A DNA stretch of 64,000 bases, taken from Candidatus Woesearchaeota archaeon. Its GTDB lineage: Archaea; Nanobdellota; Nanobdellia; Pacearchaeales; GW2011-AR1. Both the position numbers and the translations under genes were made by a program. Numbering within the stretch: position 1 is the first letter of the stretch; each line of letters begins with the position of its first letter. Under the pieces are notes generated by a model, which did no database searches, was not told where the DNA came from, and saw only the letters and a program-made list of their open reading frames with translations. The stretch is from NCBI GenBank assembly GCA_964465795.1, contig CAYXLD010000001.1, positions 5,127 to 69,126 on the forward strand, in the 5' to 3' direction. Of the stretch, positions 31,622 through 58,300 are shown in pieces.

Positions 31622-32014
31622 TCACCAAACTTCAATTTTAACATCGATATCATTAAAATCTTTTTTATCTCTTGTTATAAGAACTAGCTCATTTGTCTTT
31701 GCAATACAAGCAATCATTAAATCAAATTCCTTAGTTTGTTTTCCAATTTTGCTTAATCTTGCATACTCTTTTCCAAATGATTTACAAGAGTCGATATCGA
31801 GACCTAAAACTCTTACAGAATCTAAGAAATAATAAATAATGCTGAGTTCTTTCTCAGATTTAGAGGATAAAAAAGCCCCCTTGAATAATTCACATAAACT
31901 TATGCACGTTATTGACAGATTATTATATAGGCTAATATTTTGAATTTTTTCAATAATACTTTTATTCCCTCTTAAAAAATCAACTACGATGTTTGTGTCT
32001 AAGCAATACATCAA
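31622..32014 (-). CDS. vapC: PIN-domain protein, VapC-like toxin
   Basis: MMYCLDTNIVVDFLRGN is the PIN N-terminal motif. Overlaps the upstream small gene by 4 nt. Confidence 0.6.
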   Translation of the reverse strand: MMYCLDTNIVVDFLRGNKSIIEKIQNISLYNNLSITCISLCELFKGAFLSSKSEKELSIIYYFLDSVRVLGLDIDSCKSFGKEYARLSKIGKQTKEFDLMIACIAKTNELVLITRDKKDFNDIDVKIEVW

Positions 32015-35199: not shown

Positions 35200-36471
35200 C
35201 TAGACTCTCAATCTTTTATTCAACTCTCCAGCAAAATTCTCAAGCATTTTTTCCTTAACTTTTCCAATCCAACCACGATGCCCTAAAACCCAGCCCAATT
35301 TAACAAAGGCCGTCTCACTTAAAATATCTTCTAAAAAGATAACTCCAGCATCAACTAATTCACGGCCATTGCTATAAACAAGAGGATCTAATCTTCCATT
35401 TATCGTTTGTGCTGTGGCACAAACAATAAATCCATTCCTAATATGTTTCTTCAAATTAGGAATCCAATTGTACCCTACTTCACTAACAGGCAAATGCCCT
35501 AATCCAGCTGCTTCTACAACAATCCCCTTATATTTCAATGCATAAAAATCCAATATAGAAGAATCCTGCTCAGGATAAAACTTGATTAAAGCAATCTTAT
35601 CATTAAAATTCACATCAAGCTCGGTTTTTCTTTTTTCATCTCTCCTATTATAAGATCTAAAAAATTCAACTCTGTCTGTCCAAACTTTAGCAATAGGAGA
35701 ATCATTAATAACTTTAAAAGCATCTCTTCTAGAACTATGCATTTTCCTTGTTTTAGTTCCGGGCATAGCATAACAATAATCATCGTTAATTGTTGCATGC
35801 CCAACAATCATAACCTCTGTACAATCACTTATAGCCATTCTAGCAGCGCATTGTAAATTCAAGTTAGCATCACTTGAAGCCCTGTCAATGCTTCTCTGGC
35901 TATAAGTCAACACAACAGGTTTATTCAAATCCCTCAAAAAGAAAGACAGGGCCGCCGCAGTATATCCTAAAAAATCAGTTCCGTGTGTAACAATAACTCC
36001 TTCTATCTCTTTGTCATCAAGCATTTTCTTTACGCTCTCTCCAATTTTAATCCAATGTTCGCTTGCCATAGATTCAGAAGCAATCATAAATGGCACTTCA
36101 ATTCGTTTAACATTAACCATATCAAATAATTCAGGATAAAACTTAGTAAACTCTTCAACACTAGTCAAGGGCTTAACTCCACCTGTCCTCGAATCCAATT
36201 TAGAAGCAATAGTTCCCCCTGTAACAACCAATCCAATATTCTTCAATCCCTCTTTTTGTTTAAACTCTATTTTCTTTTCATTTTCTTCTTTAAATCTCCT
36301 TAAAACTTTCCCTCCAAGAATATTTTCTTTAGGAATTCCAATATTATATCCAGACTCCAATTTCACTAGCATAATACTGCTATCGCTGCTTTCCAGAAAT
36401 CTCCCTCTAATTTCATCTTTAGCCAATCTAATTTCAACATAATCTCCAGGATTAAAGTTTAGTTCTACCAT
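35200..36471 (-). CDS. gatD: Glutamyl-tRNA(Gln) amidotransferase subunit D (asparaginase-like)
   Basis: Asparaginase N-terminal motif VVTGGTIASKLDSRTGG, and HGTDFLGYTAAALSF. The start is taken at the internal Met (MVELNF...) so it does not overlap proS. Confidence 0.75.
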   Translation of the reverse strand: MVELNFNPGDYVEIRLAKDEIRGRFLESSDSSIMLVKLESGYNIGIPKENILGGKVLRRFKEENEKKIEFKQKEGLKNIGLVVTGGTIASKLDSRTGGVKPLTSVEEFTKFYPELFDMVNVKRIEVPFMIASESMASEHWIKIGESVKKMLDDKEIEGVIVTHGTDFLGYTAAALSFFLRDLNKPVVLTYSQRSIDRASSDANLNLQCAARMAISDCTEVMIVGHATINDDYCYAMPGTKTRKMHSSRRDAFKVINDSPIAKVWTDRVEFFRSYNRRDEKRKTELDVNFNDKIALIKFYPEQDSSILDFYALKYKGIVVEAAGLGHLPVSEVGYNWIPNLKKHIRNGFIVCATAQTINGRLDPLVYSNGRELVDAGVIFLEDILSETAFVKLGWVLGHRGWIGKVKEKMLENFAGELNKRLRV

Positions 36472-36505
36472 AAAATTTAAAGTTTTAACAGTTATAAAAA
36501 CCTTG

Positions 36506-37966
36506 CTAATAACTCTTCGCCACATAAACAACTTTAGCTGCTTTTCTTCCGCAAATAACACAGTTTCCTTTGGCATTTTCTTCGTTTAAAGAAGTCCCTC
36601 TAACACTTGCCCCTATTTCTTTTTCAATGAATTCGCCGCATTTAGTTCCATCCTTATTAGTAGAACAAAAATTACATCTGGCAATTACACCTTGTTTAAT
36701 GGCTTTTTTCATTTCATCTTTTGTTTTAGCATTTTTTATTCTTCCTTCAAAAACTTTGTCAGCCTGATCTTTCAGGTTTCTTCCAGACTCAGAAGCAATC
36801 TTGTTAATATGTTCAATAATTTTCTTGTCATCAATTAAATCTTTCTTATTCAAGTCCCTCCTAAAAATAGTAATTTTCTTTTTCTCTAAATCTTTTAATC
36901 CTATATCAATTCTAACAGGCACGCCTTTCATCTCCCAATAATTAAATTTTTCTCCAGCACTTTTCTCGCTTGCATCTACTTCAACAGAAGCAAATTTTTC
37001 AATATCTTTCTTTAATTTTTCAGCTTTATCAATCAATTTTTCATCATTGCTGATAGGTACAATTGCTACTTGTAAAGGGGCTATTTCCCAAGGGAACCTT
37101 AGACCTTTATCATCTCCATGTGTAATAACAACACTTGCAAATATCCTTGATATTGCAGGCCCATAACAAGTAATCCATCCATATTTTTCCTTTCCTTCTT
37201 TATCCTTGAATTTTACATTAAAACCCCTGGAAAATGTCTGTGACAAAAGATGAGTTGAGGGCTGTTGTACAACTCTTCCATCTGGGTTTAAAACGTCTGC
37301 CGCAAAAGTTCTATATGCTCCTGGAAACTTATCCCATTCAGGCCTTTCAAAAAAGATAAAAGGTAAACCAAAAATATCATGTAAAACATCTTTTGTTGTT
37401 TCCGTATCTTCATGAACTTGCTTCATCGCATCTTCTTCAGTTTCATGTACACAGTGCGTCTCAATCCAATGAAACTCTCTGCTTCTCAAGAAAGGTCTTG
37501 TAGCTTTAGTTTCATATCTAAAAACATTCGATCTCTGATAAGTTTTAAAAGGAAGGTCCTTATAACTTCTTATCCAAAGATTAAACATTTGATAAAATGC
37601 AGTTTCGGATGTAGGTCTTAATGCTAGTCTTTCATCAAGCTTTTTATCCCCTGCTTCAGTAACCCAAAAAACCTCTGGAACAAATCCAACGATATGGTCA
37701 CTTTCTTTTTTTAAATTACTTTCAGGAATTAAAGTGGGAAAGAAATAGGGCTTGTGTCCTTTTTTTTGCAAGACTCTTTCCATATAATAATACATTTTTT
37801 CCATAGCTAAAACACTCCAAGGCTGAAAAACCAGAAAGCCCTTTACATTATATCTCAAATCAGCCAATTCGGCCTTTTGCACAATTTGAGTATACCACTC
37901 TGAAAAGTTATCTTCCTTTTTTACAGTCAATCCCTTAGTATTTTCCTTTTCTTTTCCCATATACAA
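36506..37966 (-). CDS. proS: Prolyl-tRNA synthetase, archaeal/eukaryotic type
   Basis: Class II core with a C-terminal zinc-binding domain (CNFCSTNKDGTKCGEF...CVICGRKAAK). N-terminus NFSEWYTQIVQKAELADLRYNVKGFLVFQPW is typical of archaeal ProRS. Confidence 0.85.
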   Translation of the reverse strand: MYMGKEKENTKGLTVKKEDNFSEWYTQIVQKAELADLRYNVKGFLVFQPWSVLAMEKMYYYMERVLQKKGHKPYFFPTLIPESNLKKESDHIVGFVPEVFWVTEAGDKKLDERLALRPTSETAFYQMFNLWIRSYKDLPFKTYQRSNVFRYETKATRPFLRSREFHWIETHCVHETEEDAMKQVHEDTETTKDVLHDIFGLPFIFFERPEWDKFPGAYRTFAADVLNPDGRVVQQPSTHLLSQTFSRGFNVKFKDKEGKEKYGWITCYGPAISRIFASVVITHGDDKGLRFPWEIAPLQVAIVPISNDEKLIDKAEKLKKDIEKFASVEVDASEKSAGEKFNYWEMKGVPVRIDIGLKDLEKKKITIFRRDLNKKDLIDDKKIIEHINKIASESGRNLKDQADKVFEGRIKNAKTKDEMKKAIKQGVIARCNFCSTNKDGTKCGEFIEKEIGASVRGTSLNEENAKGNCVICGRKAAKVVYVAKSY

Positions 37967-39923: not shown

Positions 39924-40191
39924 TTCTAGTTAGATTGCCTTTTTTTATAACAAATATGGCCCATGACACAATTATAATAAATGATAAAACTGCAGCCAAT
40001 ATTGAAGAAACGAAAATACTTACTACATTGCTACTTACTGTTCCAGGGGGCGAGGATAAAAGTACATCTCCAAAATTAGATTGAATTCCTTGTCCGACAT
40101 TAAAAAAAACTAATTTAAATAAGCTATAAAATGAAAAAAATAATCCGACAAGCACTATCAAAACTAAAAACAAAACAATAAATGAGTTCAT
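39907..40191 (-). CDS. Small membrane protein
   Basis: Two or three hydrophobic helices; ORF only. Confidence 0.3.
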   Translation of the reverse strand: MNSFIVLFLVLIVLVGLFFSFYSLFKLVFFNVGQGIQSNFGDVLLSSPPGTVSSNVVSIFVSSILAAVLSFIIIVSWAIFVIKKGNLTRIIGRN

Positions 40192-41570
40192 TTTAATATC
40201 TCCTTCAATATTTCTCGAGCAATAATAAAATCAGCTCTTCTATTTGTTTTTTTCATTATTTCTCCCATCAAATAATTAAATGCATTCTGCTCACCTTTCT
40301 TGTAGTCTCCTACAACTTTCGGATTCTGTTTAATAACCTCTCTGGCAACTCTTTCAACCTCCCTTTTATCTGATAGCTTGGCCTCTTTCTCAACTAAAGA
40401 TCTAACAGAAAAACTCTTCGGAAAGAACTGCTTTAAAAGTTGTTTTCCCTTTAAAACGCTGATCTTTCCATTTTTAACATTTTCCAGTAATTCAACAAAA
40501 TGCTCAATTTTGATATCAAACTTATCTAAACTAGTCTTATTATCATTTAATAATCTAAACAATTCTACTGTGATCCATGGCAAAGCAAATTTTGCGTCTA
40601 TTTTTTCAGCAACTTTCTCAAAAAATTCAGCTACATCAATATGTTGTACAAGAACTTCTGCATCAGTACTCCCGATTTTAAACTTATTTATTATTCTAAA
40701 AAGTTTCTTTTCAGGATTTTCAGGTAATTTTTTTCTAATAATATTGATCATTTTGTCATCTAAAGCTATATCCTGTAAATCTGGGTCAGAAATAAACCTA
40801 TAGTCCTCTGCATCTTCTTTTCCTCGCATTCTGAAAGTTTTTCCCTTGGCATCATCATACCTTCGCGTTTCTCGCTCACTGCCTTCTCTTTCCTGTCTAT
40901 CCAATTCATAATCGATTGCTTTTCTTATATTTTCCAGTGAATTCAAATTCTTTATCTCGACTCTTTCAGTCTTATTAGGAATACTTACATTGACATCGAC
41001 TTTTATTCCAGCGTTTCCATCTACAGATTTTAAGTAGGATAAATTATGTAGCAAAATTCTAAGCCAGCTGATAACTTCTCCAGAACTAGTAAAAGCCGGC
41101 GCAGTAATTATTTCAACCAAAGGTAATCCAGATCTATTATAATCAACACATCCTGTATTTGGGTCCCATGAAGCAGGATCTTCTTCAAGGTGCATACTCC
41201 ATATTTCAATTCCATAAAATTTCCCATCAATTCCAATTCCTTTTACATTTCCTGAAATAGTATTTTGGTATCCTTTAGGCAAGTCAGGCCAATCGTAATG
41301 TTTTCTCTGCCATACTAAGTTTTTATTTATTTCGCATCCCAACATTAAACCAATTCTTATCGCTTGTTTAATAGCCTCTAAATTAGGCAACATTGGTTTT
41401 GCACCAGGCTGCCCCGTGCAAATTGGGCAGATATAAATATTAGGTTTTAGCCCTTTTTCTCTTGACGCGATACATTCGCAGAATAACTTCTCTCTCGTCA
41501 CAAGATAAGTATGAACTTCAAGTCCAATCATTCCTTTGATAAGTTTTTGCATTTCCTGCTCTTGAATCAT
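40188..41570 (-). CDS. gatB: Aspartyl/glutamyl-tRNA amidotransferase subunit B
   Basis: N-terminus IGLEVHTYLVTREKLFCEC matches the GatB IGLE.H.QL.T.TKLFC pattern; C-terminal YqeY-like domain. gatA is present. The assignment versus GatE is tentative. Confidence 0.6.
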   Translation of the reverse strand: MIQEQEMQKLIKGMIGLEVHTYLVTREKLFCECIASREKGLKPNIYICPICTGQPGAKPMLPNLEAIKQAIRIGLMLGCEINKNLVWQRKHYDWPDLPKGYQNTISGNVKGIGIDGKFYGIEIWSMHLEEDPASWDPNTGCVDYNRSGLPLVEIITAPAFTSSGEVISWLRILLHNLSYLKSVDGNAGIKVDVNVSIPNKTERVEIKNLNSLENIRKAIDYELDRQEREGSERETRRYDDAKGKTFRMRGKEDAEDYRFISDPDLQDIALDDKMINIIRKKLPENPEKKLFRIINKFKIGSTDAEVLVQHIDVAEFFEKVAEKIDAKFALPWITVELFRLLNDNKTSLDKFDIKIEHFVELLENVKNGKISVLKGKQLLKQFFPKSFSVRSLVEKEAKLSDKREVERVAREVIKQNPKVVGDYKKGEQNAFNYLMGEIMKKTNRRADFIIAREILKEILK

Positions 41571-43314: not shown

Positions 43315-43629
43315 TTATAGATTAAAAAATGTCTTATTTAAATAATCCTCATTCCTTCTAATTGTTTCAAAATGTTCTTTAGAAAACAATCCCTTATATC
43401 TCTCATTTTTTGAATAAACCTCTTTAGAGAATTCATAACCATCTCTGCATATATCGCATGATTTAATATGCTTATAAATCTCTAATATAAATTCTCTATT
43501 CCCTGTGTTAGTTGATGCACATTCAACTACTGCCAAACCAGAAACATAAAGCAAAATATCCAAGCCTGAAATTTTAGAACATACTTTGTTTCTTTCATCA
43601 TTATTCAGTTCGTCAATTATTTTTTCCAT
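43315..43629 (-). CDS. Hypothetical small Cys-containing protein
   Basis: ORF only; start taken at MEKIIDEL. Overlaps the 3' end of dys by ~17 nt. Confidence 0.3.
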   Translation of the reverse strand: MEKIIDELNNDERNKVCSKISGLDILLYVSGLAVVECASTNTGNREFILEIYKHIKSCDICRDGYEFSKEVYSKNERYKGLFSKEHFETIRRNEDYLNKTFFNL

Positions 43630-44629
43630 TTTTCTCCTTAGCAAAACTCCTTGCAACCAAAATAGGAAATAATATAGTGGCATCTCCAAAAACTTTGACA
43701 CTTTTTGCATCACCTTTAATTTTTCCCCAAGAAACAGCCTCATCAGGCATTGCGCCGGAATCACTTCCGTCATATTCCATAGAACTATTAATATAAACGC
43801 TATAATCGCATCCGTTTCTTAGCATATTAGAATTGAGTATTGAATGCTTGACAACTCCAGAACCCAATATAATGACGCCTGATTTTTTCAATCCAATCGT
43901 AGTATTATTCAATCTTTTCACATCTTCAACTAAGTCTATCTTAAAATTCTCATTGCTTAATGAGAAAAAATAAATGTTATCTCCTAAAGCTCCATCTGTC
44001 AGTGCAGGGCAGAAAATTCTTATTTTATTCTTCCAAGCCCAATAACAAATACTCTTTTCATCATTAATCCTCTCTCCAATTTTCCATATCAAATCATTGC
44101 CGCAAATAATTTCTTCTGTCCTTTTCTGTTCTTCATAAATTTCTTTCAATAATGGCTGCATAAATTTCTCAAACTCAATATATCTATTGTTGGGCGCGAA
44201 TATATTTCCTATCCTATTGATTCCCTTCTCTCTCAATTCTTTTCCATCAGCTCTAAAGTCTCCTAAAATAAAATCTCCAAAGCATTTGATAATATCTTCT
44301 TCAATACCGCCGCAAGTCGTAACAATTGCATCAATTTTCTTATTCTCAACTAAATATCTAAAAATATCTCTCAATCCAGAGCTAACCATATTTGAAGTAT
44401 ACCCTAGAAATATAAACGCCTTTTCTTTAATCATACTATTGGCGATATCTATTGCTTTAGACAAATACGAAGCCTGAAATCCGCTAGATGCAAAACTCTC
44501 AATAATTTTATTATAATCAACTCCCTTATTAAAGTCATATCCTTTAATTGCAGCCCCTTCAATCTCTTCGCTTTTTCTAAATAAATTTCTTCTTGCAATT
44601 TCTTCAATTTTCCTATTTTCATTTTCCAT
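43613..44629 (-). CDS. dys: Deoxyhypusine synthase
   Basis: N-terminal YDFNKGVDYNKII and the central GGIEEDIIKC, LGSGVVKHSILNSN motifs are characteristic of DHS. 338 aa. Confidence 0.75.
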   Translation of the reverse strand: MENENRKIEEIARRNLFRKSEEIEGAAIKGYDFNKGVDYNKIIESFASSGFQASYLSKAIDIANSMIKEKAFIFLGYTSNMVSSGLRDIFRYLVENKKIDAIVTTCGGIEEDIIKCFGDFILGDFRADGKELREKGINRIGNIFAPNNRYIEFEKFMQPLLKEIYEEQKRTEEIICGNDLIWKIGERINDEKSICYWAWKNKIRIFCPALTDGALGDNIYFFSLSNENFKIDLVEDVKRLNNTTIGLKKSGVIILGSGVVKHSILNSNMLRNGCDYSVYINSSMEYDGSDSGAMPDEAVSWGKIKGDAKSVKVFGDATILFPILVARSFAKEKNGKNN

Positions 44630-44677: not shown

Positions 44678-45721
44678 CTAGCCCCCGCCAAATCTTCTCT
44701 TGCGTTGCCCGTATTCCTTAATAGCTTTATGTAATTCCCAGATTCCAAATTCAGGAAAATAAGCTTGGGAAAAATAAAGCTCAGCATAAACAGATTGAAA
44801 AGGCATAAACCCGCTAATTCTTTGCTCTCCAGATGTTCTAATAATTAAATCAGGATCAGGAATGTCTTTTGTATCTAAATACCTTGAAAATTCTTCCTCT
44901 TCAATCTTTCTAATTCCATCTTTTAACATTTTACTCACTGCCCTTAATATTTCATCTCTACCACCGTAATCTAAGCATAATAAAACCTCGAAATTATTGT
45001 ATTTTTCTGTCTCTTTCTCCAGCTCTTGCAAAGATTTAATTAAATTTCTTGGCAGTCTATCTTTTCTGCCTATATGTCTAAACCTTATCTCATTTTCCTT
45101 CGCAAATTTCATAAACCTTTTTACTCCTCCCAGCAACATATCAAAAATAGCTCTTTTCTCTTCATCGCTCCTTTTCCAGTTTTCAGTAGAGAATCCCCAG
45201 ATTGAGATATATTTAACTCCGATATTTTTTGCTTCCTTTAATAATGATTCAATATTGCTATAGCTCCCTGATTTATAATGCCCGAAATGAGATTCTAGCC
45301 CTCTAAATTTAGCCCATCTTCTATTTCCATCAGGAATTATTGCAACATGTTGAGGAATGCTCGTGAATTTTCCATTTTCTGCCGAATATCCAAAAATTCC
45401 TTTCAAAAGCCTAAATATACTCTTCAACTTATCAATAAAAAAATTTCCCTCTCTAACAATTTTGAAATCATTTGATGCTCTGTCAATATTGCTCCAAGAT
45501 ACATCTATATCCTCTACTTTTGACAATCCCGGGCTGGTTTTTATCCAATCTATCATCCTATTAATTTCCTTTCTATCTCCCTGTGCAACAATTAAAACTC
45601 CTCCATCAGGCAGATTAATAACGCTGCCTTTCAATCCTAAGTCCCCTGCATACTTCTTTACTTGCTTTCTGAAATGTATTCCCTGTAATCTTCCCTTAGC
45701 TTCAATTCTTGCTTCCTTCAT
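44678..45721 (-). CDS. uppS: Fusion protein: N-terminal acylphosphatase domain plus C-terminal cis-prenyltransferase (undecaprenyl-diphosphate synthase-like)
   Basis: Residues 1-90 carry acylphosphatase signatures (EAKGRLQGIHFR...GSVINLPDGGVLIVAQG). The rest carries UppS motifs (HVAIIPDGNRRWA, GFSTENWKR, IRTSGEQRISGF). Confidence 0.75.
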   Translation of the reverse strand: MKEARIEAKGRLQGIHFRKQVKKYAGDLGLKGSVINLPDGGVLIVAQGDRKEINRMIDWIKTSPGLSKVEDIDVSWSNIDRASNDFKIVREGNFFIDKLKSIFRLLKGIFGYSAENGKFTSIPQHVAIIPDGNRRWAKFRGLESHFGHYKSGSYSNIESLLKEAKNIGVKYISIWGFSTENWKRSDEEKRAIFDMLLGGVKRFMKFAKENEIRFRHIGRKDRLPRNLIKSLQELEKETEKYNNFEVLLCLDYGGRDEILRAVSKMLKDGIRKIEEEEFSRYLDTKDIPDPDLIIRTSGEQRISGFMPFQSVYAELYFSQAYFPEFGIWELHKAIKEYGQRKRRFGGG

Positions 45722-46772
45722 TATTTGCCTCCAGAATTAATTCATCTTTAAATCTCTCTAAATCATTGCTCTGTATCCGTGCTCCAACAGCATCTTCATG
45801 GCCTCCGCCACTAGCATTCTCAAATTTCTTTAAAACTTTTTCCAAAATATTTTTAACATTTTTCCCCCTTAAAGAAACATTAGACACCTCTCCTTTCTTA
45901 TAAGCAACAGCAACATATTTTTTAGGATATAAATATGAAAGCTCATTCGCAATATCTGCACTAATGCTTAATTCTCCACTATACTGAAAAAATAAAAGTT
46001 TGCCCTTTGCATTCTTTATTGCTATTTCAAGTAAAGAATCATATTTTTTCCTTATTTCCCTATATTTCTTCCTAAAAGAATAATTTTCCTTAACTTCCAA
46101 AAATATTTCATCAGGTCCTTTGCAGGAAATCAAGAAATTTTGCAAATGAACAATATTACTAGTGCTGTCTTTCAGCCCAAAATTTAAGGCCAGAGCAATT
46201 TTCCCTATTTCTGTTCTGTAATATGCATCGAAGGGTTCAACTACTTTTCCCCAGAATTCACTATACCCTGCTCCAAATTCTTCCGCATAATCCGGCATAT
46301 AATGATCAGCAATACATCCAATAATTCCAAGCCATAAGTCTTCTTTCCTTCCGCAAAGTTTCATGCACCAATAACTAACTGGCTCCTCACTCCTGTTCTT
46401 TTCTGAATTCTTTGTAGGATTATAAACAAAAAAATTCTTCAGACCATTAGCAAAATCATCTCCACTAACGTCGTGATGATCAATCCATACAATAGGCAGT
46501 CCCAATCTATCTATTTCCTCAATAAATTCTCTGGAAACAACAGGCTTATCCAAAACAAAAACATAATCTGCTTTCAACTCACTTGCTTTTCTCGCATATT
46601 GCTTATTTAAATCAGGAAAACTTCTTACAGCCACACCTCTCCCTCGTCCCAAATACCTTCTTAAAATCAAAAAACTGCATAATCCATCGCAATCATTGTC
46701 ATAATAAAAAATAGGATTTTGCGCGCTCTCAAGATGCTCTTTCAATTCATTCATCTGTTTTTCAGTCAGCAT
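45702..46772 (-). CDS. DHH-DHHA1 phosphoesterase (NrnA/RecJ-like)
   Basis: DHH motif (IVWIDHHDV) and DHHA1 GGGHEDAVGA motif. Confidence 0.7.
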   Translation of the reverse strand: MLTEKQMNELKEHLESAQNPIFYYDNDCDGLCSFLILRRYLGRGRGVAVRSFPDLNKQYARKASELKADYVFVLDKPVVSREFIEEIDRLGLPIVWIDHHDVSGDDFANGLKNFFVYNPTKNSEKNRSEEPVSYWCMKLCGRKEDLWLGIIGCIADHYMPDYAEEFGAGYSEFWGKVVEPFDAYYRTEIGKIALALNFGLKDSTSNIVHLQNFLISCKGPDEIFLEVKENYSFRKKYREIRKKYDSLLEIAIKNAKGKLLFFQYSGELSISADIANELSYLYPKKYVAVAYKKGEVSNVSLRGKNVKNILEKVLKKFENASGGGHEDAVGARIQSNDLERFKDELILEANNEGSKN

Positions 46773-46814: not shown

Positions 46815-48913
46815 CTAATTTAAGCAAGAAAGTTCGTCTTCTGTAGAGTCAGCGCCTTCTTCAGGGTAAGGTACAGGAGGAGAATTTCCCCCTTTGAAAA
46901 GATGATTGAGTAAATAAACAGAGTCAGTTAAACTAACGCCTCCTGAATCATCAACATCTGCCGCGTCTAAACACATTGGCTCTTCTCCACCTTGGAATAG
47001 ATAGCTCAATATTCCAACGGCATCAGATATATCAATTTTATTATCTCTATTTAAATCTCCTCTAATAAATTTCTTAATTTCAGTACAAACATCAGTTTCA
47101 ATATAAATTTCTCCATAAACCTGTTCATCAGGATAATTAATAAAGGCGGTTTTCTGGTCAGAATCAATGGAGTCTATTGTAACAATAGTGCCATATATAT
47201 CTGCCTCTTTTGTCTTTGTACTTTCACTAGCCAGTGCAATAGCGCCCCATTCTTTATCATTACTCCAAGTTCTAATAACTTCATTAATTCCTATTCCATC
47301 ATCTCCAGAATTTCCAGGCTCTAAAGTAACAATCAGGCCGTTAAGTATATCTTTATTATCTTTTTCTTCAAAAATTACTAATGAAGGATAGATAATCTCT
47401 GCTGTATTTTTAGAATTAGTCAAATAAACCTCTATTTTATCTTTGGTGCCGCTGCCTTTTATCTTATAATTAAATTCTGCAATTTTAACAGAAACAAAAC
47501 TATTTTTATCAAGAATATTTATTTTATTAGATACCACGCCACTAATAACATCCCATGAACCTCTGCCATTGTCTTTAAATGTAATAAAGGTATAGCCATC
47601 TCCATCAGGAAATCTAAGATCAGCCAATTTATTTCCGCCGCCATTCCAATTATTAAGATCAATAATCATTGGTTTATACAATGCAACTTGAGCCCCTTTG
47701 TTGCTTTTTATAGTAGGATATATTATAGCGCTTCCTAACCCTATGCTATCAGGATAATTTATTCTAATACTATTGCCATCATCAGATGAAATGCCCTCAT
47801 AACTTACTATATAGTCTTTTCCACCAACGCTGACAGTGCTCAATCCTTCAGCAGTAATTCTTGCATCAATAGTATCTCCTGAGAAAACATTTATAAATTC
47901 TATATTATCATTTGCAGTGCCCATTTGATTCGTTATTGCAGAAACTTTCAAAAGTCTGCCATTATCATCATTACCTATAATAACTAATTCATTTCTCAAA
48001 ATCTTTTCATTTTCAAAAACATGAATTTTTTTTCCATCCAGAGTTTCTAAATCAATAGCATTTCCAGGTTTAACCATAGCTCACTGGAACGCTTTTTCAT
48101 ATCCTTCGTAATCTTTCATTCTTAAAATCATTAGGCTATCTCCATTATTTCTAATAACAAAATCTTCTCTTAAAGAAGTATCATCTTCACCTATGTTTAA
48201 TCTTTTAAAATCAATTCGGAAAGTGCCGAATACAGGATCAATAAAAACATTCCTTGCCGGCGGGAATGTTAAAGTAAGAGCATCTTCATCCGAATCAGGC
48301 GCAATTATACTAAGTACTATTTTTGTGGTTGCAATCGGACCTCCTTCGATCATCACAGATGTACCCTCAATAAATCCTTCATCGATACCTTTCAAAACTC
48401 CTCCGCCATTATTATAAAAAAATAGAGGGATATTATCTTCACCAAGTAAAACAATTCTTTCATTATTAGTTAATGGTGAAATGCTGAATTTTTTTCCAAA
48501 TATTTTGATATCCTTTCCTGTAGATTTTGTAAAGTCAACAGCCCTGCTAAAGGTAATAGAAACCTTATAAAAGTAGTTATTTTCTACAGTGCTCAATCTC
48601 AATCCAAAACTAGGGCCATCAGAACTTGTAGGTTGTTTAGCAAAAATAATTTTAGGATAAGAACCAATTTCTATACCTTGAACATATTCTGCTGCAACAT
48701 TCCCAAAAAAACTGCCTTTTTTTAAAAGAGCAGGCAATTCATTACTATTAATGATGGATTTGACGCTATTCAACGGTTCATTTAAATAAATTTTATTGGC
48801 TGCGGCAAATAAAGGCGTTACCTCTCCAGTACATACGGCCTGTGCAAAAACTCCACTAATAAAAAATATTCCTATTAATCCAGAGAAAAAATAATATAAG
48901 CCCTCTTTTCATA
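46815..48913 (-). pseudogene. Dockerin-domain secreted protein. The body is the two track ORFs 48081..48773 and 46815..48077, separated by an in-frame TGA at 48081-48083. The N-terminal signal peptide lies in other frames.
   Basis: C-terminal tandem dockerin repeats DLNRDNKIDISDAVGILSYL and DVDDSGGVSLTDSVYLLNHL. The ATG at 48913 gives MKRGL..., then a signal-peptide-like ...LIGIFFISGVFAQ in a second frame, then the main frame. Frame switches coincide with an A6 run (48887-48892) and a CCC run (48839-48841). Confidence 0.5.
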
Positions 48914-49955: not shown

Positions 49956-52304
49956 TTAATAAATCACACCGCCATAATCATCTTCATAAGGCAACTCAAT
50001 CTTCCCTAGTTCTCGCAAATCATCCAAATAATTAGCCTTAATTTTCGCCATCGATAGAGTATATAAAATATCACCAATGTATAAACTTCTCTGAACTTGA
50101 TTCTTATAGTCATAATAAGGATTATGATTTATTCCCCCTGGTAATGAATCAATCATCTCATTACTCCAAATATTTTCATAATTTTCATGATAAGATTTCG
50201 TGGCTGTTTCAGGGGCGTACAATTCTGTATTATTGCTCTCCCATTTATCCTCCCAAATCTTAGTCCATGTCTCTCCACTATATCCCGCTCTCTTTGCCCC
50301 TATCAGCTCTTCAGAAGCAGGTCCATACTTTTTTATATCATCAAAATGAGTTATCTGTCCTTTAACTTTAATATAATCTTCTTTTATATCGAAAACATAT
50401 GCTCCCTGCCAGACAGTTTCTCCATAAGCCAATTCAGGTCTCTCATGGTTTTGGGAATTTATTTTAGCCAAAGAAATAGGCAATACAAGCAAATTCCTTT
50501 TTTTATCAAATAAAAATGCTTTATGGTCATATAATGCATTACTATCTGTTCCTCTGTCTCCAATAATGATCTTGGCGCTTTCCTTAGGATTTGCCACATC
50601 CCTAACATCAAATATAGCAATCTTCAGCCCTTGATTAATAACAAAATCTCTGGTAGAATCAGAAACCTCTAAAGTATCTTTTCCTATCCCTATAATATGA
50701 TTCTCGTCATAAGCGTGCAAGTAATCAGAATACCCTGGAATCTTCAAATATCCTAAAACTTTAGGTTCTTGAACATCAGACAAATCAATCACATAAAAAG
50801 GATCAATATTCTTAAAAGTCACTAAATAAGCTCTGTCTCCAATAAATCTTGCAGAATAAATTCTCTCTCCAGGAGCCAAATCTTCAACTTTGCCAATAAC
50901 TTCCAAATTATCATTTAATATATAAACATTATTTTTGCTATTTTCGCTCCAAAATTCCCCAGAAGTCGTGGCTATTCTAAAATATCTATTATTCTCATCC
51001 ATAAAAAATTGATTTAGAACAGTTCCTTTAACTTCTCCTTCGGTCAAGTATTCAATTTCCTCTTCATCAACTCTAATCTTATGAATAACAGTCTTCTCTC
51101 TTTGTTCCCTCAATTCTCTTATAAAATAATTCATGCCTTCATATAATCTCTCATCAAAATTAGATTTAGCCTCCCCACCCAAAGAGCCGGAATAATCAAG
51201 AATAACTTTATTTATTTTGCTGTTCTTTTCATGAAAAGAATCTTTGGAATTTAATACATTTTCTATCTTTATTTTTTCATCAGCTGGAACAATAGGCAAA
51301 ACAACCTGCTCAATCATATCTTCAAAATAATCTCTTTCATTCAAAAATTTAGTGTAAGTCAGATAAATATTTTCACTAGATACATATAAGTTATTGCTCG
51401 CTCCAGTCAAATAAACTTTGCTATTGACCTTTCCATTTTTTATATTTATCGAATTTATAGTATTAAATGTATATCCATAATCCCAATAATCAAAATAATA
51501 AAGATCGTTTATAGCCAATCTTTCTTCAGCACCATTTATTTTTAGCATAGGCATTATAGGATTATCATTATTAACATATTTAGAGCCAATAATATAAACA
51601 TAATCTCCAATCATCCTGGAGTTTATATATTGGCCTTCGATGCTAATTTCTTTATCTAATTTAGGCTTAGTTCTATCACTTATATCATAAATATAAGCAT
51701 AAATGATAGATTCTCCGCCATAATAAGGAGGGAATATTGCTATATCAACAGCAGCTTCTTGTAATTTTGTTTCCTGATCTGAATTTATTGTTTCATATCC
51801 TTGGGCAAAAACAATAAGTCTATCTTCATTAACAAATATTCCCAATAAACTTTTATCCACAAATTCAACTTTACTAATAATTCTCATATCAGAAGCAGGG
51901 AGAGCATTAACAATAACAATCTTATTACCTGCAATATCATAAATGTAATTTCCGTCATTTTTAACTAAATCTGCTTCATCAACTCCTTCCACTTGAACAT
52001 TAGTTTGAGAATAGTCGCTTGCTTTTGCTCCAGACCCTGATTCAGCAGTAATACTTGCCCCATCTCTTTGAAGAAAACTTCTATCTATTGAAGGCAGTGC
52101 TCTTTGTGCAATCTCAAAATTCCCTAAATCCTGGCTCTCTTTCAAAAATTCCTTCAATTCAAAATAAGAATTAAAACTCCTAATTTTATTATTATAAACA
52201 ATTTCATCGCTAGTTTTTGAGTCAAAAACCGATATTGCTATCATAACTAAAACAAAAATTAATAAAACTGCAACAATGCCTATGTTCTTTGTTTCATCTT
52301 TCAT
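49956..52304 (-). CDS. Secreted/anchored beta-propeller-domain protein
   Basis: N-terminal TM or signal segment, then repeated beta-strand-rich motifs (QVEGVDEADLVKNDGNYIY, YVYIIGS, GDRAYLVTF...). Resembles the 'beta propeller domain' secreted-protein family. Its stop codon lies inside the IS target-site duplication. Confidence 0.45.
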   Translation of the reverse strand: MKDETKNIGIVAVLLIFVLVMIAISVFDSKTSDEIVYNNKIRSFNSYFELKEFLKESQDLGNFEIAQRALPSIDRSFLQRDGASITAESGSGAKASDYSQTNVQVEGVDEADLVKNDGNYIYDIAGNKIVIVNALPASDMRIISKVEFVDKSLLGIFVNEDRLIVFAQGYETINSDQETKLQEAAVDIAIFPPYYGGESIIYAYIYDISDRTKPKLDKEISIEGQYINSRMIGDYVYIIGSKYVNNDNPIMPMLKINGAEERLAINDLYYFDYWDYGYTFNTINSINIKNGKVNSKVYLTGASNNLYVSSENIYLTYTKFLNERDYFEDMIEQVVLPIVPADEKIKIENVLNSKDSFHEKNSKINKVILDYSGSLGGEAKSNFDERLYEGMNYFIRELREQREKTVIHKIRVDEEEIEYLTEGEVKGTVLNQFFMDENNRYFRIATTSGEFWSENSKNNVYILNDNLEVIGKVEDLAPGERIYSARFIGDRAYLVTFKNIDPFYVIDLSDVQEPKVLGYLKIPGYSDYLHAYDENHIIGIGKDTLEVSDSTRDFVINQGLKIAIFDVRDVANPKESAKIIIGDRGTDSNALYDHKAFLFDKKRNLLVLPISLAKINSQNHERPELAYGETVWQGAYVFDIKEDYIKVKGQITHFDDIKKYGPASEELIGAKRAGYSGETWTKIWEDKWESNNTELYAPETATKSYHENYENIWSNEMIDSLPGGINHNPYYDYKNQVQRSLYIGDILYTLSMAKIKANYLDDLRELGKIELPYEDDYGGVIY

Positions 52305-55144: not shown

Positions 55145-55357
55145 ATGAAAAAAACTAAAAAAGAGCTAGTCACTAATCTGTTAAAAAAAGACAATCAAGG
55201 GTTAACAATAATAGAAATCTCAAAAATATTAAAAATCTCTAGAAACACAGTTGCGGTTGCACTAGCCGAATTAAAAGGTGCTAATCTAATAAGAATAAGG
55301 CCAATTGGGAAAGCAAAATTACATTACTGGCTCAAAGAGAAGGAGATTAAAAAATGA
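55145..55357 (+). CDS. Small winged-helix transcriptional regulator (ArsR/MarR-like), overlapping the start of the giant surface-protein gene by 4 nt
   Basis: LTIIEISKILKISRNTVAVALAELKGANLIRIRPIGKAKLHYWL is an HTH plus wing. Its stop overlaps the downstream ATG (ATGA). Confidence 0.55.
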   Translation: MKKTKKELVTNLLKKDNQGLTIIEISKILKISRNTVAVALAELKGANLIRIRPIGKAKLHYWLKEKEIKK

Positions 55358-58300
55358 AAAAACAAATTACAATTGTTCTTCTTTTCCTATTTTTAATAAA
55401 TTTAGCTTCTGCAATAACAATATTCTCAGATGATTTTGAATCAGGAAATTTAAACGCATGGAATAAAACAAATGTAGCTGGAGCAAGAAATTGGACAGCC
55501 AATCAAACAAACCCCTTTCAAGGCTCATGGCATGCGCAATCCCAGCCAGAAAGCACAACAGAACCAGCAAGCGTTCTATCAATAAATATAAGCACATCGA
55601 ATTACCAAGATATAAGCATATTTTATTATCGTAGGCTTGTAGGCATTGATGCAGGGGATGAATTTCAGATGGAATGGTTTAATGGTACAACATGGGAAAT
55701 CTTAGAATCAACAGGAAGCTCATCAGCAAACAATGCAGTATATTTAGCAAGAAACTTTAATCTCTCATCTGTTGCAAACAATAATCAATATTTTCAAATA
55801 AAATTTGAATGTACAGCAGGAGCAACTTCAGAATACTGCAGAGTTGATAATGTAATAATAACAGGCAGCTCAATCCAAGATACTACTCTTCCAACAGTAA
55901 ACATAATTGCTCCAAGAAATAATACCATAACAACCTCAGCAATAAATAGCTTCAATGCTACATTTTCAGATAATATAGCCTTAATCAATACAACATACTA
56001 TTTATGGAATTCTACAAATTCTCTAATAAATATCACTGCTATAACGCTATCTGGCTTAGATGGAAGCATAAATTTAACAATAACATTCCCTTACGAGGAT
56101 AAGTTCACATGGAATTATTTAGCGGCAGATACTTCAAATAATTTCGCATATAATTTAACAAACTTCACAATTCTTTACGATGCAACACTGCCCTCAATAA
56201 ACTACACCATCCCAACTCAACAGTCAGGCACTATAAAAAATTCCAACTTCATAGAAATAAATATCACTGCGTCAGATTTATACTTGCAAGCACTAACAAT
56301 TCGTCTATTCAACTCAACAAAAGATCAAGTAAGAACAAACACCTCTACTAATTCCCCTTTCTATATAAACTATCTAAATCTTCAAGACGGGCTATATTTC
56401 TACAATTCATCAGCAAATGATACTGCAGGAAATACAAAAAATTTAGGAACAAGAAATATAACTATAGATACAACCCCTCCTTCAATAACAATATTAACAG
56501 AATCGCCACTAGATCCAACAACCTACTTTCAAAATAATATATATCAATTCAACGCAACAATAACAGACTTAACTCAAATACAATCAGTGAAATTAGAATT
56601 CAATGGAACAAATTACACGGCAGCAAATCCAGCAGGGAATACATATAACGTCTCTATTTCTAATCTCCCAGCTGGAGTTTTCAACTATAGATGGTTCGCA
56701 AACGATTCAGCAGGCAACACAAACAATTCAGAAACAGGCCCATATACGATAAACAAAGCTCAATCCCAGCTCAATCTTACATTAAACAATACTGAAGGAA
56801 ATATTACAATAATAGCCAGCACATCAATCATTCTAAACGGAACTCTAATCAGAGGTGACTCTCCAACTATTCTAAAATTATATAAAAACAGCACTCTAAT
56901 AAATGAAGGTCTTTCTCCGCTATATAATTTAACAAACTTCACAATTCAAGGATTATATAATATAACTATAATTTATACATCTAGCCAAAACTACACGGAG
57001 AATTCAAAAACCTATTATGTAAATGTAACATCTCAGCCAGATATAACTTCTCCTTACTTTACAGCAACTCCGGCTAATACAACAATAAATTACACTCAGG
57101 GCTTCCAAGTCAATTTTGAAGCATCAGATAATATAGCCATAGACAGTTTCTCAATCAATTGGACAACTAATTTCGAAATAAATAAAACAGGTTCTTTAAA
57201 AAACACAACAAAACTCTCTGCAGGAGCATATCTGATAAATGTATCTATCAATGATACCTCGGATAATAAAAATTCAACAATATATCAGGTTATTGTAAAT
57301 AAAATACCAAGCCAGGTAAATACCTTCCTAAACCATTCAAGATTAAATATAACAATACTGCAAAACACGGCAATATATCTAAACAGTACTCTTATTACTG
57401 GAGAAGGAATAATAAAATTATATAAGAATAACTCTTTAATAAATCAAGGGCAATCTCAGTTATCAAACCTAACCAATTTCACAACAATAGGCACATTTAA
57501 TATAACAACTATCTATGAAGAAACACAAAATTATTCATCAAATTTTGAGGCTTTTTACATTAAAGTTACGCAAACTCTAGATAACATCTCTCCATATTTC
57601 ACAGCAATTCCAGCAGACACAACAACAAGCTATCCTAACAATTTCGGAGTGGATTTTGATGCATCAGACAATAATGCAGTAGACAATTTCAGAATAAACT
57701 GGACAGATACATTCCAGATAAATCAATCTGGCTTTTTAAATAATACAAAGAATCTTGGAACAGGTTTCTATTTAATAAATATAACTATAAATGACACATC
57801 AAACAATTTAAACTCGACAATCTACTCTGTTAATATAACTCAAAATAATACATATGTTATATCAATATCTCTCTCGCCAGCATCATCAGTAATATATCCA
57901 ACGCAAACAACAACTGCAGGGAATAGCTGTCCTCAAGAACTATCATGTACTCTTTTCAGAAACAACATCTCAATAACAAATCCAGAAATAAAAACTCTGG
58001 GAGCAGAAACATACCATTACTTATACAACACAACAGGAAATACTAATTACTCCTCCAAAACAATAAGCTCATTGCTAATAATAAATCAAAACACAAGCTC
58101 CAACATTTCTTTATTTCTAAATAATACCCAAAACAATATAACAATAATAAATGGAACAAGTATCGATATTAACACTTCTTTGATTATAGGAACGGGTCAG
58201 ATAGAACTATATAAAAACAATACTCTGATTAATATAGGAAATTCATCCTTGCATAACTTAACATTGTTCAACACAATAAACTCATTCAATATAACTGCAA

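What the first reader, a model, noticed from the sequence alone, without database searches (positions are those of the whole stretch)
44678..45721. Acylphosphatase fused to a cis-prenyltransferase (UppS-like)
One ORF encodes a canonical ~90-aa acylphosphatase domain followed without interruption by a UppS-type prenyl-diphosphate synthase. I am not aware of this as a standard architecture. An acylphosphatase could act on the diphosphate product or a carrier-lipid intermediate, which is relevant to the S-layer and N-glycosylation machinery these cells need for their giant glycoproteins.
Basis: partly seen in the sequence, partly recalled or inferred. Interest (0 to 1): 0.5.

Follow-up and report, generated by a model that had tools for sequence, protein, structure and literature searches.

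The report
Acylphosphatase fused to carrier-lipid synthase UppS
A small phosphate-cleaving enzyme domain is genuinely fused to the enzyme that makes the cell's sugar-carrier lipid; the pairing recurs, fused or as neighbouring genes, in tiny archaea and tiny bacteria, so the extra domain may be the unidentified enzyme that activates newly made carrier lipid inside the cell.

Summary
Window 44678-45721 (minus strand) is one 347-aa ORF with a full acylphosphatase (AcP) domain (aa 5-88), a conserved amphipathic helix (aa 92-114) and a full UppS-type cis-prenyltransferase (aa 123-347).

It is not an assembly artefact. All of the 120 best database clusters, down to 51% identity, have both domains.

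The AcP catalytic Arg18 and Asn36 and all UppS catalytic motifs are invariant.

The fusion occurs in Nanoarchaeota (Woese-/Pacearchaeota) and also in genuine CPR bacteria. In related genomes the same AcP+helix is a separate ~112-aa gene directly upstream of UppS (8 of 8 loci). Two helix-less AcPs from Woesearchaeota genomes are not near UppS.

So this is a fusion of a conserved two-gene pair and is tied to carrier-lipid synthesis in general. No N-glycosylation or S-layer link appears in the window context.

The most likely function, which is inferred and untested, is that the AcP module handles the diphosphate end of nascent polyprenyl-PP at the cytoplasmic membrane face, possibly making polyprenyl-P. 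That step has no known enzyme.

The searchable literature does not describe this pairing. I rate it a new variant of known kinds, of moderate to high interest.

The parts
44678..45721 (-). Whole gene: 347-aa AcP-helix-UppS fusion protein (stop codon 44678-44680)
   Evidence: ORF list and sequence. Two Pfam domains. 100% identical database protein P0001 on 3 contigs.
45458..45721 (-). Acylphosphatase domain, aa 1-88 (beta-alpha-beta-beta-alpha-beta fold)
   Evidence: PF00708 E 4.8e-20, full profile. AF2 pLDDT 81-95 with the expected strand/helix order. Best solved relatives are archaeal and bacterial acylphosphatases 8jfs, 2w4d/1v3z and 2bjd, E about 1e-13.
45668..45694 (-). AcP phosphate-binding loop G10-R-L-Q-G-I-H-F-R18 (catalytic Arg18)
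   Evidence: G10, G14 and R18 are invariant, and R11, V12 and Q13 are at least 90% conserved, in 40 fused homologues. G10, Q13 and R18 are also invariant when standalone proteins are included.
45614..45616 (-). Codon of Asn36, the catalytic Asn of the G-x-V-x-N-x-x-D-G motif
   Evidence: N36, G32 and G40 are invariant in the fused and standalone families.
45380..45448 (-). Conserved amphipathic cationic helix, aa 92-114 (consensus N-F-x-x-D-K-A-K-S-x-x-N-L-G-K-x-L). It is the C-terminal extension of the AcP module.
   Evidence: D97 and L105 are conserved in 39 of 40 fused homologues; mean hydrophobic moment 0.53, mean hydrophobicity 0.11, net charge +2.3. It is predicted helical but undocked, with pLDDT 46-50 in the fusion model and 49-59 in the standalone model. 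Standalone ~112-aa AcPs end right after it.
45356..45379 (-). Short variable connector, aa 115-122, corresponding to the former stop codon and intergenic spacer of split operons
   Evidence: These alignment columns are mostly gaps or variable. Junction comparison with split loci.
44681..45355 (-). UppS-type cis-prenyltransferase domain, aa 123-347
   Evidence: PF01255 E 4.3e-69 and TIGR00055 above its cut-off. Best solved relative is S. aureus UppS 3wyi/4h8e, E 9e-50. Foldseek gives TM 0.86-0.89 normalised to target for UppS and other cis-prenyltransferases. pLDDT is mostly 82-97.
45314..45331 (-). UppS catalytic motif D131-G-N-R-R-W136
   Evidence: I129 to A137 are invariant. Other invariant residues include G147-H148, W175, F177, S178, N181, W182, R184, D251-Y-G-G254, R295, T296, E299, R301, S303, G304, E314, R340, R342 and G345.
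45702..46772 (-). Upstream DHH/DHHA1 phosphoesterase gene whose end overlaps the fusion's start by 20 nt. It is a conserved syntenic partner in Nanoarchaeota; whether it belongs to the module is unknown.
   Evidence: Pfam DHH and DHHA1, with only weak RecJ-like NCBIfam hits. The same DHH then AcP then UppS order is seen in L020, L081, L084-L087 and L018.
43613..44629 (-). Downstream deoxyhypusine synthase gene. It is context only and marks the conserved synteny shared with split-gene relatives.
   Evidence: PF01916 E 1e-114. The order DHH, AcP, UppS, DS is seen in L081, L084 and L085.

Best explanation
This is a genuine bifunctional protein. It arose by fusing a conserved two-gene pair: a specialised acylphosphatase with a C-terminal amphipathic helix, and a bacterial-type UppS.

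Shown here. Both domains are complete and keep every catalytic residue. The helix is part of the AcP module. The pair is found either fused or as adjacent, often overlapping, genes in Nanoarchaeota (Woese-/Pacearchaeota) and in several CPR bacterial lineages.

Inferred from established family knowledge. The UppS domain condenses isopentenyl-PP onto an allylic primer to give a long polyprenyl diphosphate, which partitions into the inner leaflet of the membrane.

Inferred and untested. The AcP module is held at the membrane or at UppS by its cationic amphipathic helix. It uses its Arg18 phosphate loop and Asn36 to bind the terminal phosphate of the nascent polyprenyl-PP and most likely hydrolyses it. 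This would yield the active carrier polyprenyl-P directly on the cytoplasmic face. All known C55-PP phosphatases (BacA, PAP2) act only on the outer face, so this step has no known enzyme. Physical coupling to UppS would also explain how such a phosphatase avoids destroying the soluble primers FPP and GGPP.

Confidence by tier. The fusion is real and conserved: about 0.98. The AcP module is a functional partner of UppS: about 0.85. It acts as a polyprenyl-PP phosphatase: about 0.35.
For: Domains and motifs.

Conservation of the fusion: 120 of the 120 best clusters carry both domains, and intact fused ORFs were re-derived from genome DNA.

Bacterial hosts were checked by context. L012 (WS6 OLB20, 744-kb contig) has Pth, Dtd, L21 and FtsW/RodA next door. 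L019 lies beside atpB/F/H/A. L007 lies beside Pth.

Fission and adjacency. The standalone AcP+helix gene (about 110-115 aa) is directly upstream of UppS in L020, L081, L082, L083, L084, L085, L086 and L087, with overlaps of 4-20 nt or gaps of 24-206 nt. Helix-less AcPs are also adjacent to UppS in L021, L022 and L024.

Controls. Two canonical 89-aa Woesearchaeota AcPs are not near UppS.

Subfamily identity. About 50 representative clusters at 50% identity are AcP+helix only, and about 30 are fused, counting 9 truncated at contig ends.

Helix properties.

Operon partners from carrier-lipid metabolism. A trans-prenyl synthase follows UppS in L083. DedA/VTT and PAP2 genes abut the fusion in L017.

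The pathway gap is documented. PMC4641660 says the enzyme dephosphorylating de novo C55-PP is unidentified and would need high specificity. PMC12826051 calls the restriction of Und-PP dephosphorylation to the outer leaflet an open question.
Against: No enzymology exists for this protein.

Acylphosphatases are known as hydrolases of carboxyl-phosphate anhydrides. Activity on phosphoanhydrides (NDP/NTP) is reported only as a weak side reaction; I recall this from memory and could not confirm it in the library.

By sequence the AcP domain is indistinguishable from canonical AcPs at the active site, so nothing marks a changed substrate.

The current flip-flop model needs no cytoplasmic phosphatase.

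A PAP2 phosphatase co-occurs next to the fusion in L017, so the AcP is not a simple replacement for it.

Many CPR and DPANN UppS loci have no AcP within 6 kb, so the function is dispensable or is replaced in those lineages.

The AF2 monomer models do not dock the helix or fix the relative orientation of the domains (pTM 0.64).
Confidence: 0.4

Rival explanations
1. The AcP+helix module is a non-hydrolytic or regulatory accessory subunit. It binds a phosphate or diphosphate ligand (product, primer, PPi or Pi) and anchors, orients or regulates UppS at the membrane. This would be loosely analogous to the accessory subunit (NgBR/Nus1) of eukaryotic cis-prenyltransferases.
For: The helix is conserved in specific residues (D97, K100, S101, N104, L105, G106, K107), not only in hydrophobicity. 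That pattern suits a defined protein contact. The helix is undocked in both monomer models, as expected if it needs a partner. The module persists as a separate polypeptide next to UppS.
Against: The complete AcP catalytic set (Arg18 loop and Asn36) is invariant across fused and split forms at about 30-50% identity. That is more than simple binding would need. The UppS domain has its own C-terminal RxG motif (RRFGG) and all the motifs of homodimeric bacterial enzymes, so no accessory subunit is required for catalysis.
Confidence: 0.25
2. It is an ordinary acylphosphatase acting on soluble acyl phosphates (acetyl-P, carbamoyl-P, 1,3-bisphosphoglycerate). Its fusion to or adjacency with UppS reflects co-expression or genome compaction in reduced genomes, not shared chemistry.
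For: The active site is canonical. In WWE3-like loci the AcP gene lies divergently next to DeoC-like and phosphoglycerate kinase genes, and the PGK substrate 1,3-BPG is a classical AcP substrate. CPR and DPANN genomes are compact, with many overlapping genes.
Against: The linkage holds in two domains of life and across 30-50% sequence divergence, and in different surrounding contexts. It is specific to the helix-bearing subfamily, whereas two helix-less AcPs from Woesearchaeota genomes sit elsewhere. Repeated fusion and fission of the same pair is the classic signature of functional coupling.
Confidence: 0.15
3. The AcP module hydrolyses a lipidic acyl phosphate at the membrane, for example the fatty acyl-phosphate intermediates of the bacterial PlsX/PlsY pathway. 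The helix would serve as an in-plane membrane anchor.
For: The helix is amphipathic and cationic, which suits interfacial binding. Acyl-phosphates are true AcP-type substrates. In bacteria uppS often sits in lipid-synthesis operons; this last point is from memory.
Against: It does not explain the specific, conserved pairing with UppS. It also does not explain presence in Nanoarchaeota, whose archaeal lipids are not made through acyl-phosphate. No plsX or plsY was seen in any examined locus.
Confidence: 0.05
4. The fusion is an artefact: a sequencing or assembly error joined two adjacent genes.
For: Split versions of the same pair exist in relatives, with gaps as small as 24 nt or overlaps, so a single error could in principle fuse them.
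Against: All 120 best clusters from independent assemblies are fused, with a conserved connector. The identical protein is on 3 contigs. Fused ORFs are intact in 18 independent genome loci.
Confidence: 0.01

Closest known systems
Bacterial undecaprenyl diphosphate synthase (UppS; e.g. S. aureus 3wyi/4h8e, E. coli 1jp3)
   Same: aa 123-347 match over the full length (E 9e-50, about 38% identity, TM 0.86-0.88 normalised to target). All catalytic and substrate-binding motifs are present, as is the C-terminal RxG motif of homodimeric enzymes.
   Different: It carries about 120 extra N-terminal residues (AcP plus helix) that no characterised UppS has. It is encoded in an archaeon, yet it groups with bacterial rather than other archaeal UppS.
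Stand-alone acylphosphatases (EC 3.6.1.7; e.g. Pyrococcus horikoshii 1w2i/2w4d, Sulfolobus solfataricus 2bjd)
   Same: Same ~90-aa fold, the same phosphate-binding loop with catalytic Arg, and the same catalytic Asn.
   Different: It has a conserved C-terminal amphipathic helix and an obligatory genomic partnership with UppS. Two canonical helix-less AcPs from Woesearchaeota genomes are not linked to UppS.
N-terminal acylphosphatase domain of the hydrogenase maturation factor HypF (3vth, 4g9i)
   Same: It is a precedent for an AcP domain fused to the N-terminus of a larger enzyme and used on a pathway-specific phosphorylated substrate (carbamoyl phosphate; from memory). There is weak sequence similarity (E about 1e-4).
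   Different: The partner domains are entirely different: HypF has Zn fingers plus YrdC and Kae1-like domains, and none of these is found here. HypF has no helix of this kind.
C55-PP phosphatases BacA/UppP and PAP2 (PgpB, YbjG, BcrC)
   Same: The proposed reaction, polyprenyl-PP to polyprenyl-P, would be the same.
   Different: Those are polytopic membrane proteins with active sites on the outer face. This is a soluble or peripheral cytoplasmic domain with unrelated fold and chemistry, and it gives no Pfam match to PF02673 or PF01569. A PAP2 gene co-exists beside the fusion in L017.
Heteromeric eukaryotic cis-prenyltransferase (DHDDS + NgBR/Nus1)
   Same: The concept of a cis-prenyltransferase working with a second, membrane-associating polypeptide. 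Here the partner is either separate (split operons) or fused.
   Different: NgBR is itself a degenerate cis-prenyltransferase fold that supplies the RxG motif. Here UppS has its own RxG motif and the partner is an AcP fold.

Membership tests
Acylphosphatase (Pfam PF00708, EC 3.6.1.7) | Profile match above the curated threshold over the whole ~85-aa domain | tested here: met
   72.1 bits against a cut-off of 22.5, profile 2-85/85.
Acylphosphatase (Pfam PF00708, EC 3.6.1.7) | Phosphate-binding loop V-x-G-x-V-Q-G-V-x-F-R with the catalytic Arg | tested here: met
   A8-K-G-R-L-Q-G-I-H-F-R18 (Ala replaces the leading Val; L12 and I15 are conservative). G10, G14 and R18 are invariant in 40 homologues.
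Acylphosphatase (Pfam PF00708, EC 3.6.1.7) | Catalytic Asn in the G-x-V-x-N-x-x-D-G motif | tested here: met
   G32-S-V-I-N36-L-P-D-G40. G32, N36 and G40 are invariant.
Acylphosphatase (Pfam PF00708, EC 3.6.1.7) | Beta-alpha-beta-beta-alpha-beta ferredoxin-like fold of about 90 aa | tested here: met
   The AF2 model has E2-11, H15-27, E31-36, E42-48, H50-61, E68-78 and E86-88 with pLDDT 81-95. The standalone model has the same order.
Acylphosphatase (Pfam PF00708, EC 3.6.1.7) | NCBIfam acylphosphatase equivalog score cut-offs | tested here: not met
   The best model, PRK14433, scores 69.3 bits against a cut-off of 100, and all 25 AcP models shown are below their cut-offs. These are narrow, lineage-specific models, so the result shows divergence rather than non-membership of the superfamily.
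Acylphosphatase (Pfam PF00708, EC 3.6.1.7) | Hydrolysis of carboxyl-phosphate bonds | not testable with these tools
   Needs an enzyme assay.
UppS / cis-prenyltransferase (PF01255, TIGR00055) | Profile matches above curated thresholds over the full domain | tested here: met
   PF01255 scores 232.8 bits against a cut-off of 27, profile 1-219/219. TIGR00055 scores 205.7 bits against a cut-off of 109.55. The narrow PRK equivalog models are below their cut-offs.
UppS / cis-prenyltransferase (PF01255, TIGR00055) | Catalytic Asp and Arg in the D-G-N-x-R-W motif, and the substrate-binding His, Ser/Asn/Trp/Arg, Arg/Arg/Ser and Glu residues (E. coli D26, R30, H43, S71, N74, W75, R77, R194, R200, S202, E213; numbering from memory) | tested here: met
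   D131, R134/R135, H148, S178, N181, W182, R184, R295, R301, S303 and E314 are all invariant in 40 homologues.
UppS / cis-prenyltransferase (PF01255, TIGR00055) | C-terminal RxG motif of homodimeric enzymes | tested here: met
   R342-R-F-G345. R340, R342 and G345 are invariant.
UppS / cis-prenyltransferase (PF01255, TIGR00055) | Fold identical to solved UppS structures | tested here: met
   Foldseek TM 0.86-0.89 normalised to target, rmsd about 2 A over about 230 columns.
UppS / cis-prenyltransferase (PF01255, TIGR00055) | Product chain length (C55 or other) and homodimer formation | not tested
   Would need an assay or multimer modelling.
HypF-type AcP fusion | AcP domain followed by Zn-finger, YrdC-like and Kae1-like carbamoyltransferase domains | tested here: not met
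   Only PF00708 and PF01255 were found. HypF chains match only weakly and only in the AcP domain.
Known polyprenyl-PP phosphatases (BacA/UppP PF02673; PAP2 PF01569) | Polytopic membrane protein with the family's signature motifs | tested here: not met
   No Pfam match. There is no hydrophobic segment, only an amphipathic helix with mean hydrophobicity 0.11. The protein may work like these enzymes but is not a member of either family.

The most novel reading that the evidence does not exclude
The helix-bearing acylphosphatase is the long-postulated cytoplasmic-face polyprenyl-diphosphate phosphatase. Fused or coupled to UppS, it would give a direct route from IPP to the active carrier lipid polyprenyl-P, without the flip-out, dephosphorylate, flip-back cycle. 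The module has been passed horizontally between CPR bacteria and DPANN archaea, the two great radiations of ultra-small episymbionts. It may form a three-gene unit with the upstream DHH phosphoesterase.
Probability: 0.3. Interest if true: 0.8.

Novelty: new variant of a known kind. Interest (0 to 1): 0.6.

Why it matters
Every cell that builds a wall, S-layer glycan or N-glycan needs polyprenyl phosphate, yet UppS makes the inactive diphosphate. All known bacterial phosphatases for that diphosphate face outward. How newly made carrier is activated is described as an open question in both the reviews and the primary literature (PMC4641660, PMC12826051).

A soluble phosphohydrolase domain that evolution has repeatedly welded to UppS is a concrete and easily testable candidate for that missing step. 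If it is not the phosphatase, it is a new kind of UppS partner.

The pattern also adds a clear case of a bacterial-type lipid-carrier gene module shared between CPR bacteria and Nanoarchaeota. It defines a recognisable AcP subfamily (AcP plus C-terminal helix), currently annotated only as 'acylphosphatase' or hidden inside 'polyprenyl diphosphate synthase'.

Tried and rejected
- Assembly artefact: rejected.
- Link to a glycosylation or S-layer gene cluster: I scanned 49 window ORFs with Pfam and found only housekeeping genes plus surface proteins. There was no AglB, glycosyltransferase, PAP2 or BacA.
- A search of AFDB for the two-domain fold, to get UniProt taxonomy, was not possible because the library was unavailable.
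- The PDB sequence and fold searches found no chain covering both domains or the helix.
- Literature searches for acylphosphatase with cis-prenyltransferase, undecaprenyl or prenyl gave nothing relevant. A search for the reported NTPase/NDPase side activity of acylphosphatase did not retrieve the paper I recall, so that point rests on memory.
- Archaeal N-glycosylation reviews that I opened say nothing on the dephosphorylation step.
- I looked for a docked position of the helix in two AF2 monomer models. It is helical but of low confidence in both, so nothing could be learned about domain orientation.
- I tested whether the DHH genes upstream in DPANN and in CPR-labelled L018 are close orthologues. 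They are not (E 0.13), and NCBIfam gives only weak RecJ-like hits.
- I hoped for phyletic complementarity with PAP2/BacA.
- The NJ tree gives only moderate support (56 of 100) for monophyly of the fused clade, so the direction of horizontal transfer stays open.
Full report
**1. Observation**

The window holds one uninterrupted 347-aa ORF at 44678-45721 on the minus strand.

- Pfam finds a complete Acylphosphatase domain at aa 5-88 (E 4.8e-20) and a complete Prenyltransf/UppS domain at aa 129-345 (E 4.3e-69).
- NCBIfam TIGR00055 (uppS) is passed at 205.7 bits against a cut-off of 109.55.
- The narrow PRK equivalog models for both domains are below their cut-offs. This shows divergence from the model organisms, not absence of the domains.

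The window is archaeal. It carries MCM, eRF1, aIF2-beta, GatDE and an intron-containing tRNA.

**2. The fusion is real and under selection**

A search of 5.8 billion proteins returned 7,730 relatives. All of the 120 best clusters (100% down to 51% identity, 339-371 aa, from NCBI, JGI, ENA and Logan) carry both PF00708 and PF01255.

In an alignment of 40 of them, the following are invariant:

- the AcP phosphate loop (G10, G14, catalytic R18) and the catalytic N36;
- every UppS hallmark: I129-A137 (IPDGNRRWA), H148, W175, F177, S178, N181, W182, R184, D251-G254, R295, T296, E299, R301, S303, G304, E314 and the C-terminal R342..G345.

An assembly artefact is excluded.

**3. The 'junction' is a conserved element**

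Residues 92-114 form a predicted helix with consensus N-F-x-x-D-K-A-K-S-x-x-N-L-G-K-x-L.

- D97 and L105 are conserved in 39 of 40 sequences.
- The mean hydrophobic moment is 0.53, the mean hydrophobicity 0.11 and the net charge +2.3.

In the AF2 model of the fusion (mean pLDDT 82.7), both domains are confident but the helix has pLDDT 46-50 and pTM is only 0.64. The helix is therefore not packed against either domain in a monomer.

**4. The helix belongs to the acylphosphatase, and the pair also exists as two genes**

I searched 1.84 billion representatives with a profile of aa 1-140. Among the best 150, about 30 clusters at 50% identity are fused proteins (22 full-length, 9 truncated at contig ends). 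Roughly 50 clusters are ~105-125-aa proteins that consist of the AcP plus the same helix and then stop.

Their genes lie directly upstream of UppS in every locus I could resolve:

- Nanoarchaeota and Pacearchaeota loci L020, L081, L084, L085, L086 and L087, in the order DHH then AcP then UppS, several followed further downstream by deoxyhypusine synthase. This is the same synteny as the window.
- WWE3-like CPR loci L082 and L083. In L083 a trans-prenyl synthase follows UppS.

The junctions are overlaps of 4-20 nt or gaps of 24-206 nt.

As controls, two canonical 89-aa AcPs from Woesearchaeota genomes sit elsewhere, next to an alpha/beta hydrolase.

Helix-less AcPs are nevertheless adjacent to UppS in three bacterial loci: L021 (Parcubacteria, 16-nt gap), L022, and L024 (convergent).

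The standalone model again shows a confident AcP core (pLDDT 85-95) and an undocked helix (pLDDT 49-59).

**5. Distribution and evolution**

It found intact fused ORFs in:

- MAGs labelled Woese-, Pace- and Nanoarchaeota;
- Dojkabacteria/WS6 (L007, L012, L015);
- Paceibacterota (L019);
- contigs labelled Saccharibacteria (L017, L018).

The bacterial nature of L012, L019 and L007 is confirmed by their neighbours: Pth, Dtd, L21, FtsW/RodA and an F-type ATP synthase.

Many other CPR lineages (Moran-, Roizman- and Gracilibacteria, and most Saccharibacteria) and DPANN lineages (Micrarchaeota, Altiarchaeota) have UppS with no AcP within 6 kb. The module is therefore lineage-restricted.

In an NJ tree of 66 UppS domains, all fused genes plus the split DPANN genes form one clade (56 of 100 bootstraps). 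That clade nests among bacterial sequences. Archaeal monophyly was recovered in none of 100 replicates.

Identity of the window's UppS domain to other groups:

| Group | Identity |
|---|---|
| CPR fused enzymes | 47-52% |
| Other archaeal UppS | 36-46% |

This suggests inter-domain transfer of the module, but the support is moderate and the direction is unresolved. Split forms nested among fused ones suggest that fusion or fission happened more than once.

**6. What it most likely does**

Shown: this is a catalytically intact AcP subfamily with an amphipathic helix, tied genomically to UppS in two domains of life.

Established knowledge: UppS makes polyprenyl diphosphate at the cytoplasmic face, and the carrier is active only as the monophosphate. 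All known C55-PP phosphatases (BacA, PAP2) have outward-facing active sites. The enzyme for de novo C55-PP is therefore either 'another non-identified enzyme' on the cytoplasmic side, which would have to be very specific to spare FPP, or none at all under the flip-flop model (PMC4641660; PMC12826051).

In Euryarchaeota, N-glycans are built on dolichol monophosphate (abstract of PMC4476749). If the same holds here, which I did not test, activation of newly made carrier would be the main diphosphatase step these cells need.

Inference: the AcP module binds and probably cleaves the terminal phosphate of nascent polyprenyl-PP. The helix would hold it at the membrane or on UppS, and the physical coupling would provide the required specificity.

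Supporting context:

- a trans-prenyl synthase in the operon in L083;
- DedA/VTT and PAP2 genes abutting the fusion in L017;
- a DUF218-AcP-helix protein, P0178. DUF218 proteins such as ElyC have been linked to Und-P metabolism, but that link is from memory.

I put the phosphatase mechanism at about 0.35 and a functional partnership of some kind at about 0.85.

**7. Points against, and rivals**

- AcPs are specialists for carboxyl-phosphate anhydrides, and the active site here is canonical, so nothing signals a new substrate.
- PAP2 co-occurs with the fusion in L017.
- The flip-flop model needs no such enzyme.

The rivals are:

- a ligand-binding regulatory or anchoring subunit (0.25);
- a generic AcP fused for co-expression (0.15). 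The divergent PGK neighbour in WWE3 loci is a small point in its favour;
- a lipid acyl-phosphate hydrolase (0.05);
- an artefact (0.01).

**8. Comparison with what is known**

Each domain is a clear member of its family (see the membership tests). The combination is not described in the searchable literature and has no structural precedent.

The nearest conceptual precedent is the AcP domain at the N-terminus of HypF. The nearest functional analogues, if the hypothesis holds, are BacA and PAP2, to which the protein is unrelated.

**Verdict**

This is a real, conserved, unreported variant architecture. It yields a strong, testable functional hypothesis about an open question in carrier-lipid biology. 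Interest 0.6; novelty: new variant of a known kind.

Noticed in passing
window 45702-46772 (-); L020, L081, L084-L087; L018 119-1138: A DHH/DHHA1 phosphoesterase gene lies immediately upstream of the AcP(-)UppS unit in every Nanoarchaeota/Pacearchaeota locus, overlapping it by 4-20 nt. The same arrangement occurs in the CPR-labelled contig L018, although the two DHH proteins are barely similar (BLASTP E 0.13). NCBIfam gives only weak RecJ-like hits. It may be a third member of the module or only inherited synteny.
   Followed up: partly
L017 4146-6427: The AcP-UppS fusion is followed convergently by a VTT/DedA-family gene (5220-5864) and a PAP2 phosphatase gene (5891-6427). Together they form a compact carrier-lipid synthesis and recycling cluster. 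A VTT-domain gene also lies about 3 kb downstream of the AcP-UppS pair in L082 and L083.
   Followed up: partly
protein P0178 (302 aa, from the representative library): A second fusion partner for the helix-bearing AcP: an N-terminal DUF218 (ElyC/SanA/YdcF-type) domain followed by AcP and the helix. P0188 and P0210 each contain two acylphosphatase domains.
   Followed up: partly
L020 6328-6470, L085 3334-3359, L086 2729-2934: Split operons share an intergenic motif just upstream of the UppS start codon. L020 and L086 have TTCTAAAACTTTAAAAA[G/C]CG(C)TTTTTCATT; L085 has only the core AAAAAGCGTTTTTTCATT. It resembles an archaeal TATA/BRE element, so UppS may have its own promoter there.
   Followed up: no
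L061 and L075 (CPR UppS ORFs of at least 417 and 640 codons between stops): Some Patescibacteria UppS genes carry a C-terminal, helix-rich extension of about 170 aa that is unrelated to AcP. This is another unexplored UppS architecture. Thermoproteota UppS have a Trp/Tyr-rich N-terminal extension.
   Followed up: no
window 16412-16506 (+): Rfam finds a 95-nt tRNA (60.5 bits) that ARAGORN missed. Its length suggests an intron-containing archaeal tRNA.
   Followed up: no
window 4769-5176, 23131-23523, 31622-32014 (all -): Three PIN-domain (VapC-like toxin) genes are scattered through a 64-kb housekeeping region. PIN and MazE pairs also flank the AcP-UppS pair in L082, L083 and L086.
   Followed up: no
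window 488-2205: An MvaI/BcnI-type restriction endonuclease ORF (157 aa, matching only the C-terminal two-thirds of the profile) lies next to an N4/N6 DNA methylase. A possible DDE transposase remnant lies at 2496-3074.
   Followed up: no
window 46815-48077, 49956-52304, 55354-61032: Surface-protein genes: a dockerin-domain protein, a 782-aa Beta_propel protein that is syntenic with the DHH-AcP-UppS block in relatives, and a 1892-aa protein with Big_13 and a C-terminal PRC-barrel. None is linked to a glycosylation gene in the window.
   Followed up: partly
window 23991-25469, 32341-33795, 35200-36576, 40188-41570: Parts of both archaeal amidotransferase systems appear to be present: GatD (asparaginase-type) plus a GatE-like protein, and also GatA (amidase) plus GatB.
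   Followed up: no
L014 (labelled Woesearchaeota) in the UppS tree: Its fused UppS groups with the Dojkabacteria/WS6 fused genes rather than with the other archaeal fused genes. This points either to a mis-binned contig or to a further transfer event.
   Followed up: no
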